Assembly (NCBI GenBank): GCA_001797365.1
Contig: MGPH01000030.1
Location: forward strand, 1,963-65,962
Length of the DNA: 64,000 nt
Direction: 5' to 3'
Source of the DNA: Deltaproteobacteria bacterium GWA2_45_12
Lineage (GTDB): Bacteria > UBA10199
The position numbers and the translations under genes are program-made. A model generated the notes under the pieces. That model saw nothing but the letters and a program-made list of their open reading frames with translations. It had not been told where the DNA came from and searched no databases. Shown here piece by piece: positions 2,444 to 54,085 of this stretch (positions are counted from its first letter, which is position 1; each line of letters opens with the position of its first letter).

Positions 2444-2471
2444 GTAAGGGCAATTCATGAATTGCCCTTAC
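2444..2471. repeat. REP-like 28 bp perfect palindrome GTAAGGGCAATTCATGAATTGCCCTTAC
   Basis: Perfect dyad 5 nt after the M16 stop. Same palindrome at 11529, 31993 and 41113; a near-copy at 26225; compensated variants at 41555 and 53756; a half-copy near 20035. Confidence 0.8.
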
Positions 2472-5626: not shown

Positions 5627-5736
5627 GTGCGACCGGCCCTGTACAGATACTACCCTTCGACTAGGCTCAGGGTGTCCATTATTTATCAAATTATAGGACA
5701 TGGTGAGCTTCGTCGAACCATGCATTGGGATAATGT

Positions 5737-10714: not shown

Positions 10715-11521
10715 ATGCCCGATCCCTTAAACAAAGACGGTCTCCATAAACTTACCCGTGACTTGAATTCCTCGGCCAAGAAAAAAGGCGTTGTTCGCGA
10801 ATATGTTGAAGCCCTTCTTGTTGCTGTTTTGCTGGCCTTTGTGATTCGTTCTTTTCTTATTGAACCTTACAAGATCCCTTCCAAGTCGATGGTTCCCACA
10901 CTCTTGGTCGGGGACCATATCTTTGTGAACAAATTGGCCTATGGGTGGAGAATTCCCGGCACCAAAAAATGGCTCACCTATTTTGGAGAGCCCACGCGCG
11001 GGGAGGTGATGGTTTTTATTTACCCCGAGGATGAAAAACTCGATTTTATCAAAAGGGTGGTGGGGCTTCCTGGTGATCATATTCGCATGACGGACAATAA
11101 GCTTTATATAAATGATGTTGAAATCACCAACCAGGATATCGAGGTGGTGGGTATCAATCCACAGGACAAACGGAATCTTCTTTTGCCAGAGGCAAAAGCT
11201 TCAGAACTTCCCAAGGACATAAAAGGCATTCCATTTTTCAGGGGATATTCAAATTATCAAATCAAGCTTGAAGACATGATTGGATCAAAACACCTGATGC
11301 AGCGAAGCAAGCTTTTACCCAATAATGATTCTTTTGACCTTACTGTACCCGCTGACACCTATTTTGTGATGGGGGATAACCGGGACCAGAGTGCGGATAG
11401 CCGGGTTTGGGGTTTTGTACCACGCAAAAACTTGAAGGGCCGGGCGATTTTCATTTGGCTTTCCCTGGATTCTGATTTGGGGGGAGTTCGTTTCAAACGC
11501 TTTGGTAAAAAAATCATTTAG
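10715..11521 (+). CDS. lepB: signal peptidase I
   Basis: 268 aa; S26 catalytic Ser box SMVPTL and the GDNRD box GDNRDQSADSR; conserved lepA-lepB synteny. Confidence 0.9.
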   Translation: MPDPLNKDGLHKLTRDLNSSAKKKGVVREYVEALLVAVLLAFVIRSFLIEPYKIPSKSMVPTLLVGDHIFVNKLAYGWRIPGTKKWLTYFGEPTRGEVMVFIYPEDEKLDFIKRVVGLPGDHIRMTDNKLYINDVEITNQDIEVVGINPQDKRNLLLPEAKASELPKDIKGIPFFRGYSNYQIKLEDMIGSKHLMQRSKLLPNNDSFDLTVPADTYFVMGDNRDQSADSRVWGFVPRKNLKGRAIFIWLSLDSDLGGVRFKRFGKKII

Positions 11522-11528
11522 TAACCAT

Positions 11529-11556
11529 GTAAGGGCAATTCATGAATTGCCCTTAC
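11529..11556. repeat. REP-like 28 bp palindrome (copy)
   Basis: Exact GTAAGGGCAATTCATGAATTGCCCTTAC, 8 nt after the lepB stop. Confidence 0.8.
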
Positions 11557-11771
11557 ATAGCGGACACCCTGAGCCCTGTCGAAGGGTTACACGGGGCTTT
11601 ATTTCCTGTGGGAAAATTTTTCCCCTCTGTCAAAATACATTTGACATTTTCTTCATGATTTTCTCCGAAAATATTCCCTAAGTATTTAAAATTAAATGGG
11701 TAATTTTTAAAAATCATATTGGTATGTGATTTGCACTTTGTTTTGGTGCAAATTTCAAAAAAGGGGGAACT

Positions 11772-29329: not shown

Positions 29330-30455
29330 TCGGGAATTCTTTAAAGTATTCAAAAGGGCTTATGACGTGGAGTTTGTTTTTTGAGTATGATTTTTTGAGT
29401 TGTCCTACAATTTGTACTGCATTTTTGGGATTTAGTTTTTCAGCATAATATTGAAGTGATTTTGAAACTTCATCATCGCCCCATTTTACTTCAATTAAAT
29501 CTTCCACATTGCCATCTTTAAGAACGACAAAATCAACTTCACGGCCTTCCTTGTCACGAATGTAATTCAATTCCATTTTGTAACCGAACCTGTCCTCAAT
29601 ATAATTAAGTTTTTTAAGCAAGTGGGTGGCGACCAGATTTTCAAAACGAGCTCCTTCATCGCCCATAATGTCGGCATTATCGAAAAAGTAAATTTTGGGG
29701 GGCTTAAGAATGGCCCGTGCCAAATTGTTTGTATAGGGTTTGACTTTAAAAACAACATACATTCGTTCCAAAATATCGACCCAATTTTTGACAGCATTGA
29801 AAGATACATGCAAGTTTTCGGCTATATTGGCAATGACCACAGCAGATCCGACCCTTTTTCTGAGCAAATCAAGAAGCAGGGCAAGGTATTGTATGTCTTT
29901 GATGGGTTCCAGATCACGGACGTCATTGCGCAGAATTTTTTCATAGCGTTCTTTTCTCCATCGTCTGGCTTCAATTTCATTTCCATCCAGAAAAGGTTCG
30001 GGGAATCCACCCACAGTCATGAGTCTTCCAAACACTTCTTTTTTATTTAACTTGGCTGGATGTTCTTCCAAAGAAAATGGATGGAGTCGCCAAGAATGAT
30101 ACCGCCCCATGAGTGAATCGCCCCCGCGCCGATAAGTGTCCAAACGGGCACTCCCCGTGATCAAAAACTGGTGTTTGTCACGGTACTTGTCGAAAATTCC
30201 TTTGAGCCAGTTTTTCCATCGTTTGTATTTGTGAATTTCATCCAGAATGATGAGCTTTTCCTGTTCCAACCATTTAAGGGACAAAATATTGCTCTTATCT
30301 TTATCGAAGTCCCAATTGAAATAAACTCCGTGATCGTGGGCTTGTTCATGAAGAATGGTGTTGGCCAAGTAGGTTTTTCCAACCTGTCTGGGCCCACTTA
30401 GAAAAACCATCTTTTTTTGCAGATCCTTGACGATAAAAGGGGTCAAATAACGCAT
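29319..30455 (-). CDS. AAA-family ATPase (AAA_14/DUF4143 architecture)
   Basis: 378 aa; Walker [12 protein letters not shown]. Confidence 0.7.
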
Positions 30456-30549: not shown

Positions 30550-30578
30550 GTAGGGACCCCGTAATGCGGGGTCCCTAC
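30550..30578. terminator. 12 bp-stem palindrome GTAGGGACCCCG-taatg-CGGGGTCCCTAC spanning the CCA gene stop
   Basis: Perfect stem at the 3' end of the minus-strand cca gene. A second 12 bp palindrome, GGCTATTTTAAC-ttatag-GTTAAAATAGCC, lies at 30493-30522. Confidence 0.4.
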
Positions 30579-31966
30579 ACGGTGAATTTCTCTTTCACCA
30601 ATTTCTCCAAGATTTCCTTCGTATTCAGCTCTGGTTCATCCAGTACTTTTTCCAATAGAAATTTTTGGATTTCACCAATGATGGGGCCGGGTTTGTAGCC
30701 CAGGGCCATGATGTCGTGGCCGTTTAAGGCCAGGTCTTTGGGGCCGAACGGGGGTTTTTTGTCCAATTCATCCTGGATTCTTTGGCGCAAATTTAAAATA
30801 CCCTTCATGCTGTCGGGGTAGCGCCCTCCTTTTTTATCGGCAATGCGCAGGTCGATCAAATCAAAAATATGATCCTTTCCGATTTTATTGACAAAGCGCC
30901 TGATGGCTCGTTCGGAATAAAAAGCCTTGGTTTCAAACATGTGGTTAAAGGTCATGTTTAACACCTTGCCGATGTTGACTCCAATGCAGGTGGCTTTATA
31001 TTCATTAAGCCATTGCTTCGCGATGCGCTTGGAAACGATCTGGTGATTGTAAAAAGTGGTTTTGTCCTTGTCTTTGTCATAGTTCACTGTGGCGGGTTTG
31101 CCGGCATCATGTAAAAGGGCGGCAAACATAAGGTCAATATCCCCCGGTTTGTCCAATTCTGCGGCACTACGAGCGGCATCTAATACCTTCATGGTGTGCT
31201 GATAGACGTCCTCATTTTTTTTCATGGGTTGCATGACACCAATCATGGGAGGGATGAAAGGGAAAACAAATTCAAGCAACCCCACCTCGCGCATAAGGTC
31301 AAACCCATGGGAGGGTTTTTCGGCCATGAACAATTTTTTGATCTCCCCGATGATGCGTTCTTTTGAAATTTCGCGAATAAGGGCGGCATTTTTTTTCATG
31401 CCGGCGATTGTTTCCGGTTCAATGGTCAAATGAAATCGTGCGCTAAATTGAACGGCCCGAAGAAGGCGAAGGGGGTCTTCAACAAAAGTGTTTTCAAAAA
31501 CCTGGCGGAGGATTTTTTTCCTTAAATCTTCCCGCCCGTTGTAGGGATCAAGATACTCCTGTGTTTTCAAATTTTTCGCGATGGCGTTGATGGTAAAATC
31601 ACGACGCCCCAAATCTTTTTCAACAGGGATATGGGGATCAAAATCAACCTCGAAGTCACGATGTCCGGGTCCGACAGATTTTTCAACGCGCGGCAGGCTT
31701 AAATCAAATTCGATATCGTTTTTTTGTCGGGGACGAAACTTGATGATGCCAAACGATTTTCCCACCGTATTGACCCATCCTTCCTTTTTAAGAAGGCTCA
31801 TGAGCGACTCCATGGGTAGGCCAGTGATGAGAAGATCGTTGTCTTTATGGGGGATGCCCAAGAGTTCATCGCGCACATTGCCGCCCACAAGATAAACTTC
31901 ACCACCGGTTTTAAAAATGGAATCGACGAATGGGAATTGATTGCAGAGAGAAGACATCAGAAGCAT
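30575..31966 (-). CDS. cca: CCA tRNA nucleotidyltransferase / poly(A) polymerase family with an HD domain
   Basis: GGNVRDELLG nucleotidyltransferase head motif, with HD residues in LLHDAGK. The start is taken at MLLMSS (31964-66), because the ORF-track start at 32002 lies inside the REP palindrome. Confidence 0.8.
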   Translation of the reverse strand: MLLMSSLCNQFPFVDSIFKTGGEVYLVGGNVRDELLGIPHKDNDLLITGLPMESLMSLLKKEGWVNTVGKSFGIIKFRPRQKNDIEFDLSLPRVEKSVGPGHRDFEVDFDPHIPVEKDLGRRDFTINAIAKNLKTQEYLDPYNGREDLRKKILRQVFENTFVEDPLRLLRAVQFSARFHLTIEPETIAGMKKNAALIREISKERIIGEIKKLFMAEKPSHGFDLMREVGLLEFVFPFIPPMIGVMQPMKKNEDVYQHTMKVLDAARSAAELDKPGDIDLMFAALLHDAGKPATVNYDKDKDKTTFYNHQIVSKRIAKQWLNEYKATCIGVNIGKVLNMTFNHMFETKAFYSERAIRRFVNKIGKDHIFDLIDLRIADKKGGRYPDSMKGILNLRQRIQDELDKKPPFGPKDLALNGHDIMALGYKPGPIIGEIQKFLLEKVLDEPELNTKEILEKLVKEKFTV

Positions 31967-31992
31967 GGTTCGACTAAGTCCGCCATGCCTGG

Positions 31993-32020
31993 GTAGGGGC
32001 AATTCATGAATTGCCCTTAC
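31993..32020. repeat. REP-like palindrome copy (GTAGGGGCAATTCATGAATTGCCCTTAC)
   Basis: Lies between the divergent or convergent ends of the cca and PpiD-like genes. Confidence 0.75.
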
Positions 32021-41082: not shown

Positions 41083-41140
41083 GTAGGGGCAATTCCCGTA
41101 AGGGCGGCTTGTGTAAGGGCAATTCATGAATTGCCCTTAC
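41083..41140. repeat. REP-like palindrome: partial copy (41083-95) plus a full copy (41113-41140)
   Basis: ttgtaggggcaattcccgtaagggcggcttgtGTAAGGGCAATTCATGAATTGCCCTTAC lies between convergent genes. Confidence 0.75.
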
Positions 41141-41547
41141 GGTTTCCAATGAAAGGTCAAATTTATCTTAATATCCGGATGCAGTGAGTGATGCACCGGG
41201 CAGGTTTTGGCGGCTGCGATGAGTTTTTGCTGTTCTTTTTCAGGGATAAGATGGGGAATTGTGAACGCCACATTCAGCTCATCAATGCGGCGCGGCAGTT
41301 TTTGAGTCATCTTTTTTTCAACCTGAAGCGTCATTCCTTCAAGCGGAATATTATCGCGCTTGGCCACAATCCCCATGATGGTGGCCATGCAGGCCCCTAA
41401 AGAAGTGGCTGCCAGGTCGGTGGGAGAAAACGATCGTCCCTTGCCTTGATTGTCCGGCGGGGCATCCGTTGTGATTTTAACCTTTGAAAGCTCGTGAATG
41501 GCTTCTACTTGAAGGTCGCCAAGATATTTTAGGTGCATGATGCTCAT
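41137..41547 (-). CDS. OsmC/Ohr-family peroxiredoxin-like protein
   Basis: Conserved Cys pair context (SLGACMATIMGIVA; AKTCPV). The start is taken at MSIMHLKYL, because the ORF-track start at 41568 lies in the REP variant. Confidence 0.72.
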   Translation of the reverse strand: MSIMHLKYLGDLQVEAIHELSKVKITTDAPPDNQGKGRSFSPTDLAATSLGACMATIMGIVAKRDNIPLEGMTLQVEKKMTQKLPRRIDELNVAFTIPHLIPEKEQQKLIAAAKTCPVHHSLHPDIKINLTFHWKP

Positions 41548-41554
41548 AAAAGCG

Positions 41555-41582
41555 TAGGGGCAGTTCATGAACTGCCCTTACG
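41555..41582. repeat. REP palindrome variant with a compensatory pair (GTAGGGGCAgTTCATGAAcTGCCCTTAC)
   Basis: T-to-G and A-to-C changes at mirror positions keep the dyad perfect. Confidence 0.7.
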
Positions 41583-52758: not shown

Positions 52759-53745
52759 TCATTTTAGAGAATTTTGGATGAGTTTATGAGAAAAAGTCAG
52801 GAAACAGGAGGTGATTACTACCCTTTTTAAGGTTTTCCGGGAGATTTTATGAGGGAGGGTGGGGTCTAATAAGTTTGGGTCTTCTTTTAGGAAACGAAGG
52901 GTTTCCAAGCCGATCATGCAGGGGAGAAGTGTGGCTAGGCGGGTGGTGGCGTGTTTGCGTGGGATTATTTCCATGTATTTTGCAGCATATTTTAAATGGC
53001 CCAAGGCCCGTTGGATCAGGTTTTCTATCAGGCGGTCAAGAGCGGGTTTGTTTTGGGGATCCTTTAAATTTGTGGGAGTCAGGTTGAATTGTTTCAGAAT
53101 TTCAAGCGGGATATAGCATCGCCCCATGTTTAGGTCGCAAGCAAGGTCCTTGATCACATTGGTCATCTGAAGGCCTTTTCCATAGGCAATGGCCCACTGG
53201 TCTACTTCATTTTCAGAAATTATTTTAAGAGGGAAAGTCAGCTTTAGCATTTGTGTCCAAAAAGGCCCCACAATGCCTGCGGCATCAAAGCAGTAGGTTT
53301 CCAAGTCAGCTTCTGTTTCCAAGGCGACAGGGTTTTGTTTGGTGGCATGGGCAAAACGTATTAGATCTTTTTCCATCCCCCCTATAAGATGAAGCACGAC
53401 ATCGCGAATCAGTTTTTTTTCTTTTTCATCCGTTTCAGAAAAAAGTTTTAAAATGTTTGGCAGTTCTTGAAGTAGTTTTTGTTCATCCGTGAAATTTTGA
53501 TGGGAAATTATTTGGGCAAAAAAATGATCCCAATCTTTTTGCTCATGCCAAGCACCGTTGATCTCGTTTTTTAAGAGACTTAAAAATCTTTCTTTTTCTT
53601 GAACCGGAAGAACCGGTGTGTCGGTGATGGTGTCGGCACTTCTAGCCAGTAAATAGGCCAGTGCCAAGGGAGTGCGTGTTTTTTTAGGCAGGATGCGAAG
53701 CGACAAATAAAAACTGCGCGATACTTTTTTGAGGATGGTTTTCAC
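52759..53745 (-). CDS. squalene/phytoene synthase family protein (HpnC/HpnD-like trans-isoprenyl diphosphate synthase, head-to-head)
   Basis: 328 aa; N-terminal SRSFYLSLRILPKKTRTPLALAYLLARSADTITD (first Asp-rich motif D-T-I-T-D). Confidence 0.7.
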   Translation of the reverse strand: MKTILKKVSRSFYLSLRILPKKTRTPLALAYLLARSADTITDTPVLPVQEKERFLSLLKNEINGAWHEQKDWDHFFAQIISHQNFTDEQKLLQELPNILKLFSETDEKEKKLIRDVVLHLIGGMEKDLIRFAHATKQNPVALETEADLETYCFDAAGIVGPFWTQMLKLTFPLKIISENEVDQWAIAYGKGLQMTNVIKDLACDLNMGRCYIPLEILKQFNLTPTNLKDPQNKPALDRLIENLIQRALGHLKYAAKYMEIIPRKHATTRLATLLPCMIGLETLRFLKEDPNLLDPTLPHKISRKTLKRVVITSCFLTFSHKLIQNSLK

Positions 53746-53755
53746 GTTTTTTTTT

Positions 53756-53783
53756 GTAAGGGTAATTCATGAATTACCCTTAC
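53756..53783. repeat. REP palindrome variant with a compensatory pair (GTAAGGGtAATTCATGAATTaCCCTTAC)
   Basis: C-to-T and G-to-A changes at mirror positions keep the dyad perfect. Confidence 0.7.
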
Positions 53784-53873
53784 CCGGAAATGGTGAGCTA
53801 AGCCTGTGCCTTGAGCTTGGCGAAGATCGAGCCAAGCTTAATATAGAGGGTCTTTGTGTTTTCCCGATGATAT

Positions 53874-54085
53874 CCCCCTTTAAAAAAGGGGGATAAAGGG
53901 GGATTTGGGCCCGCTTTTATCCCCGTTTCTGTATTCCTTTCTCAGTAAATTCTTTCCCAACCTCTTTTTGCATAAGAGATATTTGAATCGGGTACGGGAG
54001 CTGGAACGGGAACAAATCCCCCTGCCCCCCTTTTTTCCCGCATACGGGATCCCGCTACGCGGTGATAAAGGGGGATGATACGGGA
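53874..54085 (-). repeat. B-element (MITE-like, inverted orientation relative to the 61.3 kb copy) with a flanking CCCCCTTTAAAAAAGGGGG hairpin and a degenerate right end
   Basis: GGGGGATTTGGGCCCG (53898-53913) ... CGGGAACAAATCCCCC (..54022). The reverse complement of 53912-54020 aligns with 61275-61380 (ccgttccagctcccgtacccgattcaaatatctcttatgc...ggaaagaatttactgagaaa). Confidence 0.65.

What the first reader, a model, noticed from the sequence alone, without database searches (positions are those of the whole stretch)
41083..41582. Genome-specific 28 bp perfect palindrome GTAAGGGCAATTCATGAATTGCCCTTAC in at least 7 copies; two variants keep perfect dyad symmetry through compensatory double substitutions
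Copies: 2444-2471, 11529-11556, 26225-26251 (1-nt deletion), 31993-32020, 41083-41095 (partial) plus 41113-41140, 41555-41582 (caGttcatgaaCtg) and 53756-53783 (gTaattcatgaattAc); a half-copy at about 20030-20050. Two independent paired changes at mirror positions are strong evidence of selection on the hairpin or dyad itself, either as an RNA stem or as a symmetric protein-binding site. All copies are intergenic, most within 5-15 nt of a stop codon and between convergent or co-directional gene ends, like REP or BIME elements. I did not recognise this as a described REP family.
Basis: seen in the sequence. Interest (0 to 1): 0.55.

Follow-up and report, generated by a model that had tools for sequence, protein, structure and literature searches.

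The report
Known REP palindrome, not genome-specific
The repeated 28-base palindrome is real, but it is a local variant of an already published repetitive extragenic palindrome (REP) that travels with a family of REP-associated tyrosine transposases (RAYTs) and occurs almost unchanged in bacteria of more than a dozen phyla.

Summary
There are seven full copies of GTAAGGGCAATTCATGAATTGCCCTTAC (0 expected by chance), plus one arm fragment and one degenerate copy, and all are intergenic. Mirrored positions covary.

The claim "genome-specific, not a described REP family" is wrong. These include Cyanobacteria, Chloroflexota, Planctomycetota, Nitrospirota, Bacteroidota/Balneolales, Deltaproteobacteria, Omnitrophica and Kuenenbacteria.

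The canonical form GTAGGGGCAATTCATGAATTGCCCCTAC is listed in Table S1 of Quentin et al. 2018 (PMC6006769). There it is a "double-foot" REP of RAYT/TnpA_REP subclass 2.4.

In other genomes the 28-mer flanks RAYT genes or sits in frame inside them (L088, L010, L117, L033, L146). At least 41 of the 120 best RAYT homologues carry its translation, V.A[IV]HELPL.

The window comes from the MAG "Deltaproteobacteria bacterium GWA2_45_12". It uses a minority GTAA/TTAC foot in place of GTAG/CTAC, and it contains no RAYT gene. Whether the rest of that genome has one could not be tested.

Verdict: a new member of a known kind. The most likely mechanism is a single-stranded DNA hairpin mobilised by a RAYT, with possible side effects on the 3' ends of mRNAs.

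The parts
2444..2471 (.). Perfect 28-bp REP copy. It lies 4 nt after the stop codon of an M16 peptidase gene (841-2439, +) and 64 nt before the next M16 peptidase gene.
   Evidence: DNA hairpin -11.1 kcal/mol, z = -6.7
11529..11556 (.). Perfect REP copy, 7 nt after the stop codon of the signal peptidase I gene (10715-11521, +). A second type of hairpin (GGACA-stem-GAGCnnnGTCGAA-stem) follows at about 11562-11592.
26224..26251 (.). REP copy with a 1-nt deletion in the left foot (GTA-GGGC). It sits in the 533-nt spacer between the RES-domain gene and the MlaD gene. The second hairpin type lies directly to its left (26192-26222).
31993..32020 (.). REP copy with a GTAG left foot and a TTAC right foot (G.T on the + strand, A.C on the - strand). 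It lies 30 nt after the stop codon of the SurA-like gene (-) and upstream of the CCA-adding/poly(A) polymerase gene (-).
41083..41112 (+). Two truncated REP heads, GTAGGGGCAATTC (41083-41095) and GTAAGGGCGGC (from 41098). They are spaced 15 nt apart, upstream of the full copy.
41113..41140 (.). Perfect REP copy between the convergent SAM hydrolase (+) and OsmC (-) genes. The OsmC stop codon TAA (41137-41139) is part of the REP foot. Three independent assemblies break at this copy.
41554..41581 (.). REP variant GTAGGGGCAGTTCATGAACTGCCCTTAC (paired A10G/T19C, unpaired A4G). It lies in the divergent region between OsmC (-) and the phosphoribosyltransferase gene (+). The ATG in its loop is called as the OsmC start in one annotation (143 aa against 136 aa).
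53756..53783 (.). REP variant GTAAGGGTAATTCATGAATTACCCTTAC (paired C8T/G21A, perfect dyad). It lies 10 nt upstream of the squalene/phytoene synthase ORF (-) and 315 nt after the aconitase-C/LeuD-like gene (-).
20006..20052 (.). Degenerate REP copy with an expanded loop (GTAGGGGCGATT...GAATTGCCCCCAC), 10 nt after the ComEA-like HHH gene.
   Evidence: (weak fold, z = -2.0)
30550..30578 (.). Single copy of a different double-foot palindrome, GTAGGGACCCCGTAATGCGGGGTCCCTAC. It has the same GTAG...CTAC architecture with another inner stem. Its foot supplies the TAG stop codon of the CCA-enzyme gene.
   Evidence: (-14.6 kcal/mol, z = -7.3)

Best explanation
These are copies of a GTAG-tagged 'double-foot' REP, the palindrome family that serves as the DNA substrate of RAYT/TnpA_REP enzymes of subclass 2.4 (Bertels Group 4).

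Each copy can fold, when the DNA is transiently single-stranded, into a 12-bp stem with a CATG loop. The outer four bases (GTAG or GTAA, with CTAC or TTAC opposite) form the 'foot'. Three G-C pairs sit above the foot.

By analogy with the E. coli, S. maltophilia and Marinomonas systems, a HUH/Y1 nuclease binds the folded hairpin. It uses the foot as a guide and cuts and rejoins single-stranded DNA beside it. That activity spreads copies into non-essential intergenic DNA.

Copies survive where they do no harm, mainly just past stop codons, where the foot can even supply the TAA or TAG. As transcribed hairpins they may secondarily affect mRNA 3'-end stability or translation termination.

Shown here:
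- sequence identity to the published REP;
- hairpin potential;
- covariation of mirrored positions;
- intergenic placement;
- physical association of this exact 28-mer with RAYT genes in other genomes.

Inferred:
- that a RAYT exists or existed in this genome;
- the cleavage chemistry;
- any effect on expression.
For: - Published identity: Table S1 of PMC6006769 lists GTAGGGGCAATTCATGAATTGCCCCTAC under subclass 2.4 (foot GTAG, 12-bp stem, loop CATG, double foot = T). The text defines subclass 2.4 REPs by three G-C pairs at the stem bottom and 5' GT[AG]G ... C[TC]AC 3'. GTAA feet also occur in subclass 2.4 REPtrons.
- RAYT association: RAYT-like ORFs lie at or around the 28-mer in L010 (REP in frame), L033, L088 (REPs at both ends), L117, L146, L176, L182, L210 and L218. 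That is 9 of 259 randomly hit loci, always within about 200 nt.
- RAYT identity: the four ORFs L010, L033, L088 and L117 match NCBIfam NF047646 'REP-associated tyrosine transposase' at E = 2e-12 to 3e-19. The best PDB hit for a profile of them is 4ER8, TnpA_REP. They carry NH[FI]H, W[QH]RN[YF]YEH and YI..NP motifs.
- In-frame REP peptide: at least 41 of the 120 best homologues contain V.A[IV]HELPL, the translated REP, between the HUH and Tyr motifs.
- The GTAA/TTAC subtype itself lies next to RAYT genes in L088 and L117.
- Covariation of mirrored positions and stable DNA hairpins.
- All copies are intergenic.
- Assemblies break at a copy, as expected for a high-copy repeat.
- Taxonomic spread matches what is described for Group 4/subclass 2.4.
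Against: - No RAYT gene lies in the 64-kb window. tblastn with 120 RAYTs hits only REP-encoded peptides, and the one weak extra hit is an AAA_14/DUF4143 ATPase.
- The rest of the MAG could not be searched. Two look-ups of candidate RAYTs led to other samples.
- The majority foot here is GTAA, not GT[AG]G. In the S. maltophilia assay a fourth-position change (GTAC) abolished cleavage, so these copies could be poor substrates.
- No subclass 2.4 RAYT was among the three TnpA_REP/REP pairs assayed in the one biochemical paper read here (PMC8266576), and I know of no other such assay.
- No empty-site comparison was possible. The nearest relative is only 57% identical at the protein level.
Confidence: 0.85

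Rival explanations
1. The copies are inert fossils. The REP family entered this lineage with a RAYT that has since been lost, or the GTAA foot has made the copies non-substrates. They now persist only by neutrality or by host-level usefulness.
For: - No RAYT in the window.
- The foot differs at position 4, which matters for cleavage and cleavage-site choice in tested systems.
- Several copies are decayed: 20006-20052, 26224 and the 41083 fragment.
Against: - Three copies are identical over all 28 nt.
- The foot change is compensated on both arms (GTAA with TTAC) in 5 copies.
- The same GTAA/TTAC subtype lies directly beside RAYT genes in L088 and L117.
- GTAA feet are recorded inside REPtrons.
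- Only about 2% of a genome of typical size was examined.
Confidence: 0.25
2. The primary, selected function is at the RNA level. The hairpin would act as a transcription terminator or a 3'-end stabiliser, and that role would explain its placement after stop codons.
For: - Three loci have a copy within 12 nt of a stop codon, or overlapping one, and a fourth lies 30 nt after a stop.
- REPs are known to affect mRNA stability and termination (background cited in PMC3733652).
Against: - No copy is followed by a T-run in the direction of the upstream gene.
- Copy 41554 is in a divergent promoter region and copy 53756 is in a 5' leader.
- At 31993 the transcribed (-) strand carries the A.C mismatch, not the G.U wobble.
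- An RNA role does not explain identity of the 28-mer across phyla with 33-66% GC, nor its link to RAYT genes.
Confidence: 0.1
3. The palindrome is a symmetric operator bound as double-stranded DNA by a dimeric transcription factor (a regulon).
For: Perfect dyad symmetry. One copy overlaps a promoter-like region upstream of OsmC.
Against: - Most copies are at gene 3' ends, and the flanking genes are functionally unrelated.
- Mirrored substitutions covary so as to keep Watson-Crick pairing. That pattern is expected for a hairpin, not for a protein half-site.
- The motif is identical in unrelated phyla and is tied to RAYT genes.
Confidence: 0.02
4. The copies are remnants of a MITE or of insertion-sequence ends mobilised by a DDE transposase, or a DNA-uptake signal.
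For: They are short, dispersed, intergenic inverted repeats. Single arms exist (41083, 20040).
Against: - There is no conserved sequence beyond the 28 nt at about 130 sites in the genome-contig loci, and no conserved direct repeat is visible in those printed flanks (not scored formally).
- The element is far shorter than a MITE.
- Uptake signals are lineage-specific and occur inside genes as well, whereas here 7 of 7 copies are intergenic.
Confidence: 0.02

Closest known systems
Double-foot REP GTAGGGGCAATTCATGAATTGCCCCTAC of a subclass 2.4 REPtron (genome code CchlA01, protein ABB27827.1; Quentin et al. 2018, PMC6006769, Table S1)
   Same: 26 of 28 bases are identical to the window consensus. 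It has the same 12-bp stem, CATG loop, three G-C pairs above the foot and a foot on both sides. Copies 31993 and 41554 and fragment 41083 carry the canonical GTAG on one side.
   Different: The window consensus has A.T instead of G.C at the fourth foot position (GTAA...TTAC). In an unbiased metagenome sample only 2 of 128 sites have this on both sides, against 81 with GTAG...CTAC. No RAYT is seen in the window.
E. coli REP/BIME with TnpA_REP (RAYT, PDB 4ER8; Bertels Group 2, subclass 2.2)
   Same: An extragenic palindrome with a 5' GTAG foot, recognised as a single-stranded DNA hairpin by a HUH/Y1 enzyme. 4ER8 is the best PDB match of the RAYTs found beside this 28-mer.
   Different: E. coli REPs are imperfect palindromes with a bulge, have one foot only, usually occur as inverted pairs (BIME/REPIN), and differ between related species. 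This REP is a perfect palindrome with two feet, occurs mostly singly, and is identical across phyla.
S. maltophilia perfect-palindrome REPs with TnpA_Sm (Corneloup et al. 2021, PMC8266576)
   Same: Perfect stem, GTAG foot and a short loop. In vitro, a mismatch in the stem or a change in the foot impairs cleavage. That fits the covariation seen here.
   Different: That REP has an 8-bp stem, a 3-nt loop and a single foot, with cleavage at a CT beside the hairpin. The enzyme is from another RAYT group.
Subterminal hairpins of IS200/IS605 elements (IS608, ISDra2)
   Same: Hairpin plus tetranucleotide guide, recognised on single-stranded DNA by a related Y1 HUH transposase.
   Different: Those hairpins bound a transposon that carries its own transposase. 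Here the 28-mer stands alone, with no cargo.

Membership tests
REP of RAYT subclass 2.4 (GTAG-tagged, double foot) | Short palindrome (20-40 bp) that folds into a stable hairpin | tested here: met
   28 nt, 12-bp stem, 4-nt loop. DNA folding energy is -8.4 to -11.1 kcal/mol, with z from -4.6 to -6.7 on the + strand.
REP of RAYT subclass 2.4 (GTAG-tagged, double foot) | Many dispersed copies confined to extragenic DNA | tested here: met
   7 full copies plus 2 partial or degenerate copies in 64 kb, all outside coding sequence. The genome-wide count could not be made.
REP of RAYT subclass 2.4 (GTAG-tagged, double foot) | 5' GT[AG]G foot, its complement C[TC]AC at the 3' end, and three G-C pairs at the stem bottom | tested here: met
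   GGG/CCC is present in every copy. The feet are GTAG in a minority (31993, 41554, 41083, 20006) and GTAA in most, a one-base departure from the strict consensus. The same 20-nt core carries GTAG on 195 of 256 feet in metagenomes. GTAA feet are listed in subclass 2.4 REPtrons.
REP of RAYT subclass 2.4 (GTAG-tagged, double foot) | Sequence match to a published member | tested here: met
   26 of 28 bases match the Table S1 entry.
REP of RAYT subclass 2.4 (GTAG-tagged, double foot) | Cognate RAYT gene flanked by, or containing, the same REP (a REPtron) | not testable with these tools
   For this genome there is none in the window, and the other contigs of the MAG could not be queried. For the 28-mer in other genomes the feature is met: L010, L033, L088, L117 and L146.
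REP of RAYT subclass 2.4 (GTAG-tagged, double foot) | Cleavage and strand transfer of the folded single strand by the RAYT | not testable with these tools
   Biochemistry only. In the paper read here it was assayed for three TnpA_REP/REP pairs (E. coli, S. maltophilia, Marinomonas), none of subclass 2.4.
REPIN / BIME (inverted REP doublet) | Two REPs in inverted orientation a short distance apart, forming a larger hairpin | tested here: not met
   Copies are single. The only cluster (41083, 41098, 41113) consists of direct, truncated heads.
Intrinsic (Rho-independent) terminator | GC-rich hairpin followed at once by a U-run on the transcribed strand | tested here: not met
   Only 41554 has a T-rich tail, and no + strand gene ends there.
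MITE | 70-300 bp element with terminal inverted repeats and target-site duplications | tested here: not met
   Nothing beyond the 28 nt is conserved at about 130 sites in the genome-contig loci, and no conserved direct repeat is visible in the printed flanks. Direct repeats were judged by eye, not scored.
CRISPR array | Repeats at regular spacing of about 25-70 nt | tested here: not met
   Full copies are 0.4-15 kb apart.

The most novel reading that the evidence does not exclude
This REP seems to break the usual expectation that REP sequences are species-specific, and that may not have been stated in the literature.

The same 28-mer is kept almost unchanged in at least 86 species of about 15 phyla, with genomic GC from 33 to 66%. 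Meanwhile the RAYTs beside it have diverged to 39-57% identity. Many of those RAYT genes carry the REP in frame inside themselves.

A RAYT gene that carries its own substrate would seed a new REP population after each horizontal transfer.

In addition, 19% of copies elsewhere sit exactly at the apex of longer hairpins that are specific to each locus. That would point to hairpin loops, including terminators, as the insertion target and so give a handle on the unknown REP insertion mechanism.

The window's compensated GTAA/TTAC foot would then be a natural test of the guide model. The fourth foot base would pair with the first base of the cleavage dinucleotide, predicting TT instead of CT.
Probability: 0.25. 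Interest if true: 0.5.

Novelty: new member of a known kind. Interest (0 to 1): 0.25.

Why it matters
For this window it matters little. The palindromes are ordinary selfish or domesticated REP copies. Their practical consequences are for annotation and assembly:
- they supply stop codons;
- they create false start codons and short false ORFs that encode ...AIHELPL... or ...FMNCPY...;
- they break metagenome assemblies.

More broadly, this REP may be useful to people who study RAYTs. It is one sequence, conserved across phyla and embedded in frame in its own enzyme gene, with natural foot variants and a possible preference for hairpin apices. It could therefore help work out how REPs are copied and inserted, which is still unresolved.

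Tried and rejected
- Rfam at gathering thresholds and a tRNA scan over the whole window: nothing found.
- Megablast and blastn of the window against the 120 genome loci: no shared sequence beyond the repeat, so none of those loci is a close relative.
- Full-text search for the 20-nt core: 0 papers. The sequence was found only in a supplementary table.
- Elhai et al. 2008 on small dispersed repeats in cyanobacteria could not be read.
- Attempt to find the RAYT of this MAG by looking up candidate homologues P0042 and P0006: both came from other samples.
- A weak tblastn hit of a RAYT to 29568-29816 is an AAA_14/DUF4143 ATPase, not a transposase.
- Empty-site comparison with the nearest relative failed. 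It is only 57% identical at the protein level, synteny ends after the SAM hydrolase gene, and its 14.4-kb contig has no copy.
- A fuzzy regex scan for further degenerate copies misbehaved and was discarded.
- Considered and rejected: CRISPR repeat, MITE, uptake signal, operator, intrinsic terminator (see the membership tests).

Full report
**Observation**

A search with up to three mismatches finds seven copies of GTAAGGGCAATTCATGAATTGCCCTTAC in the 64-kb window, against none in 100 shuffles.
- Three copies are perfect: 2444, 11529 and 41113.
- Copy 26224 has lost one base of the left foot.
- Copy 31993 has A4G only, giving a G.T pair on the + strand.
- Copy 41554 has A4G plus the paired change A10G/T19C.
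- Copy 53756 has the paired change C8T/G21A and remains a perfect dyad.

A half-site search adds a left-arm fragment at 41083-41095. It also adds a right arm at 20040-20052, which belongs to a degenerate copy at 20006-20052 with an expanded loop.

Copies 31993 and 41554 are less perfect than stated.

All full copies fold as DNA hairpins with a 12-bp stem and a CATG loop. Energies are -8.4 to -11.1 kcal/mol, with z from -4.6 to -6.7 on the + strand.

With maximal ORFs covering 89% of the window, all seven copies fall in the remaining 11% (chance about 2e-7).

The region around 41083-41582 is 100% identical in five independent assemblies wherever they cover it. Three of those contigs end inside or just after copy 41113-41140, as expected at a high-copy repeat.

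**Source organism**

Two window proteins are exact matches to entries of 'Deltaproteobacteria bacterium GWA2_45_12' and of a TPA 'Deltaproteobacteria bacterium' MAG (accessions OGP09262.1 and HBF11900.1). One search places the same gene on a contig of GCA_003501025.1. The closest other homologue of its SAM hydrolase is only 57% identical, so the lineage is isolated in the databases.

**Not genome-specific**

A pattern that allows the five variable positions was scanned against one genome per species. By accession prefix these come from 86 assemblies. They include:
- many Cyanobacteria (Pseudanabaena, Nostoc, Planktothrix and others) and Melainabacteria;
- Anaerolineae and Chloroflexia;
- Planctomycetota and Thermodesulfovibrionia;
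- Balneolales, Saprospiraceae, Ignavibacteria-like and Kapaibacteria;
- Desulfuromonadales and other Deltaproteobacteria;
- Kangiella, Omnitrophica, Kuenenbacteria, Thermotogae and Desulfosporosinus.

Several are isolate genomes: Longilinea arvoryzae, Pseudanabaena minima and Kangiella aquimarina. The local GC content of these loci runs from 33 to 66%.

Nothing beyond the 28 bases is conserved between sites, so the 28-mer itself is the unit.

It occurs in only 19 of 2.9 million viral contigs.

**Identity**

Quentin et al. 2018 (PMC6006769) classify the Y1 HUH enzymes. They describe, for subclass 2.4 (Bertels Group 4), REPs whose stem bottom is three G-C pairs. Some families carry 5' GT[AG]G and its complement C[TC]AC at the 3' end, which the authors call a 'double foot'.

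[quoted passage not shown] The entry gives foot GTAG, a 12-bp stem, loop CATG and double foot = T.

The window consensus differs from it only by a compensated A.T pair at the fourth foot position.

The taxonomic pattern fits as well. [quoted passage not shown] **Association with RAYT genes, tested here**

A motif screen of the fetched loci found RAYT-like ORFs at the 28-mer in nine of 259 loci, always within about 200 nt.
- In L088 (Longilinea arvoryzae) the gene (P0004, LARV_03824) has a GTAA/TTAC copy about 40 nt upstream. A GTAG/CTAC copy supplies its last codons and its stop.
- In L010 the REP lies in frame inside the gene.
- In L117 and L033 it lies 36 and 25 nt from the ORF.

The four proteins (L010, L033, L088, L117) align with invariant NH.H, W.RN.YEH and YI..NP motifs, and L088 shares 39-57% identity with the other three.
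- They match NCBIfam NF047646 'REP-associated tyrosine transposase' at E = 2e-12 to 3e-19. That is below the equivalog cut-off, as expected for a distant subclass.
- Two pass the Pfam Y1_Tnp threshold.
- The best solved structure for a profile of the four proteins is 4ER8, E. coli TnpA_REP.

A profile search returned 7,996 proteins with E <= 1e-10 among the 8,000 candidates scored, which was the scoring cap. Several are named 'REP element-mobilizing transposase RayT' by JGI.

At least 41 of the best 120 contain V.A[IV]HELPL between the HUH and Tyr motifs. That peptide is the exact translation of the REP (GTA GGG GCA ATT CAT GAA TTG CCC CTA). It is the in-frame REP insertion that Quentin et al. 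single out as unique to subclass 2.4.

**Selection on pairing**

Over 130 sites from the other genomes:
- positions 8/21 read CG 112, TA 12 and one-sided 6;
- positions 10/19 read AT 122, GC 4 and one-sided 4.

Doubles are far in excess of independence (p = 7e-12 and 2e-5).

However, the two variants in the window are recurrent subtypes found in many phyla. They are not two local events.

The in vitro work on perfect-palindrome REPs gives the likely reason. A mismatch in the stem, or a change in the foot, impairs cleavage by the cognate TnpA_REP.

**The foot**

In an unbiased sample (the 20-nt core in metagenomes), 81 of 128 sites have GTAG...CTAC, 10 have GTAA...CTAC and only 2 have GTAA...TTAC.

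The window's dominant GTAA/TTAC form is therefore a minority subtype. It is still common in Pseudanabaena and scattered elsewhere, it lies beside RAYT genes in L088 and L117, and GTAA feet are listed in subclass 2.4 REPtrons.

In Marinomonas the foot acts as a guide whose bases pair with the cleavage dinucleotide, and changing it moves the cut predictably. By inference, GTAA with TTAC keeps guide and target matched (A4 with T25). This is untested.

**Context in the window**
- 2444 lies 4 nt after an M16 peptidase stop codon.
- 11529 lies 7 nt after the signal peptidase I stop codon.
- 31993 lies 30 nt after the SurA-like stop codon.
- 41113 sits between convergent genes, and its foot provides the OsmC stop codon TAA.
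- 41554 sits in the divergent OsmC/phosphoribosyltransferase region. Its loop ATG has been called as the OsmC start in one annotation (143 aa against 136 aa).
- 53756 lies 10 nt before the squalene/phytoene synthase ORF.
- 26224 lies in a long spacer.

Di Nocera et al. 2013 already noted that GTAG REP termini often provide stop codons.

None of the copies has a T-run on the side that would make it an intrinsic terminator for the upstream gene. At 31993 the transcribed strand carries the A.C mismatch. An RNA-level role is therefore at most secondary.

**What could not be shown**

The window has no RAYT. No close relative exists for an empty-site comparison. Current mobility in this genome is therefore inferred, not shown.

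**Verdict**

The finding is a correct observation of an ordinary, published kind of element in a new host, with a minority foot variant.

Two points go beyond the literature I could read:
- The REP is the same across phyla while its enzymes have diverged.
- A fifth of copies elsewhere sit at the apex of longer hairpins specific to each locus.

Both concern the family at large rather than this window.

Noticed in passing
window 5640-5730 (inverted pair, core motifs starting 5656 on - and 5705 on +), 11562-11592 (+), 26192-26222 (-), about 31960-31990 (-), about 53785-53815 (+, degenerate): A second hairpin repeat family: GGACA, a 4-6 bp stem that varies with compensation (CCCT/AGGG or TGGT/ACCA), and a conserved loop GAGCnnnGTCGA. 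It lies directly beside the 28-mer at four of seven copies, always in the same relative orientation, and once forms an inverted doublet on its own. It translates to the 'MVR..HH' / 'LSLSKG'-type peptides that, from memory, are common in spurious ORFs of MAGs. Five hits occur in locus L045, another Deltaproteobacteria MAG. It is not in Quentin Table S1.
   Followed up: partly
L108 3247, L170 9667, L117 6397, L030 7959, L037 5015, L058 7646 and others: In other genomes, 49 of 252 copies of the 28-mer (19%) have at least 4 and up to 32 further complementary flank pairs, against 0 of 242 shifted controls. The extensions are unrelated in sequence between sites, and some look like bidirectional terminators (A-run, stem ... 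stem, T-run). The REP appears to sit at the apex of pre-existing local hairpins. This is not seen at the window copies, where the maximum is 2 bp at 11529.
   Followed up: partly
L088 6916-7602, L010 7371-7946, L033 7477-7998, L117 5737-6360: L088's RAYT, which lies beside the same 28-mer, is only 39-57% identical to the other three, so the DNA substrate is better conserved than the enzyme. L033 carries a different in-frame REP peptide (VGANGRSPLR) although the 28-mer flanks the gene.
   Followed up: partly
window 30550-30578: A single copy of another double-foot palindrome, GTAGGGACCCCGTAATGCGGGGTCCCTAC (-14.6 kcal/mol). Its foot supplies the TAG stop codon of the CCA-adding/poly(A) polymerase gene. 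It may belong to a second REP family of the same genome.
   Followed up: no
window 41083, 41098, 41113; also L012 2713-2752, L112 6720-6732, L117, L118: Truncated REP heads (GTARGGG...) lie in direct order a few bases upstream of a full copy. In the window they are spaced 15 nt apart. This recurs in unrelated genomes and may be a trace of abortive copying or slippage.
   Followed up: no
window 41113-41140; contigs L123, L124, L125: Three independent metagenome assemblies end at window positions 41131-41153, that is inside or just after this REP copy. This suggests the repeat fragments assemblies of this organism.
   Followed up: no
window 31993, 41083, 41554: All three feet with G instead of A are on the + strand side. 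That gives a G.T wobble on the + strand and an A.C mismatch on the - strand. The + strand has positive GC skew over almost the whole window. With n = 3 this is not significant.
   Followed up: no
window 41548-41581 and 26197-26280, 53729-53896: The REP arm GTAAGGGCAATTCATG resembles a ribosome-binding site plus ATG. It generates spurious starts and short ORFs encoding ...AIHELPL... or ...FMNCPY... One annotation starts OsmC at the loop ATG (143 aa against 136 aa).
   Followed up: no
window 24554-25805 and 25001-25049: A RES-domain protein gene follows a 145-aa ORF that was not scanned. From memory, that layout resembles a RES-Xre toxin-antitoxin pair. A 24-bp-arm palindrome rich in C/G runs (TAACTCCCCCTCGCCCCCTCTTAA / TTAAGAGGGGGTTGGGGGGAGTTA) lies inside the overlap region.
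   Followed up: no
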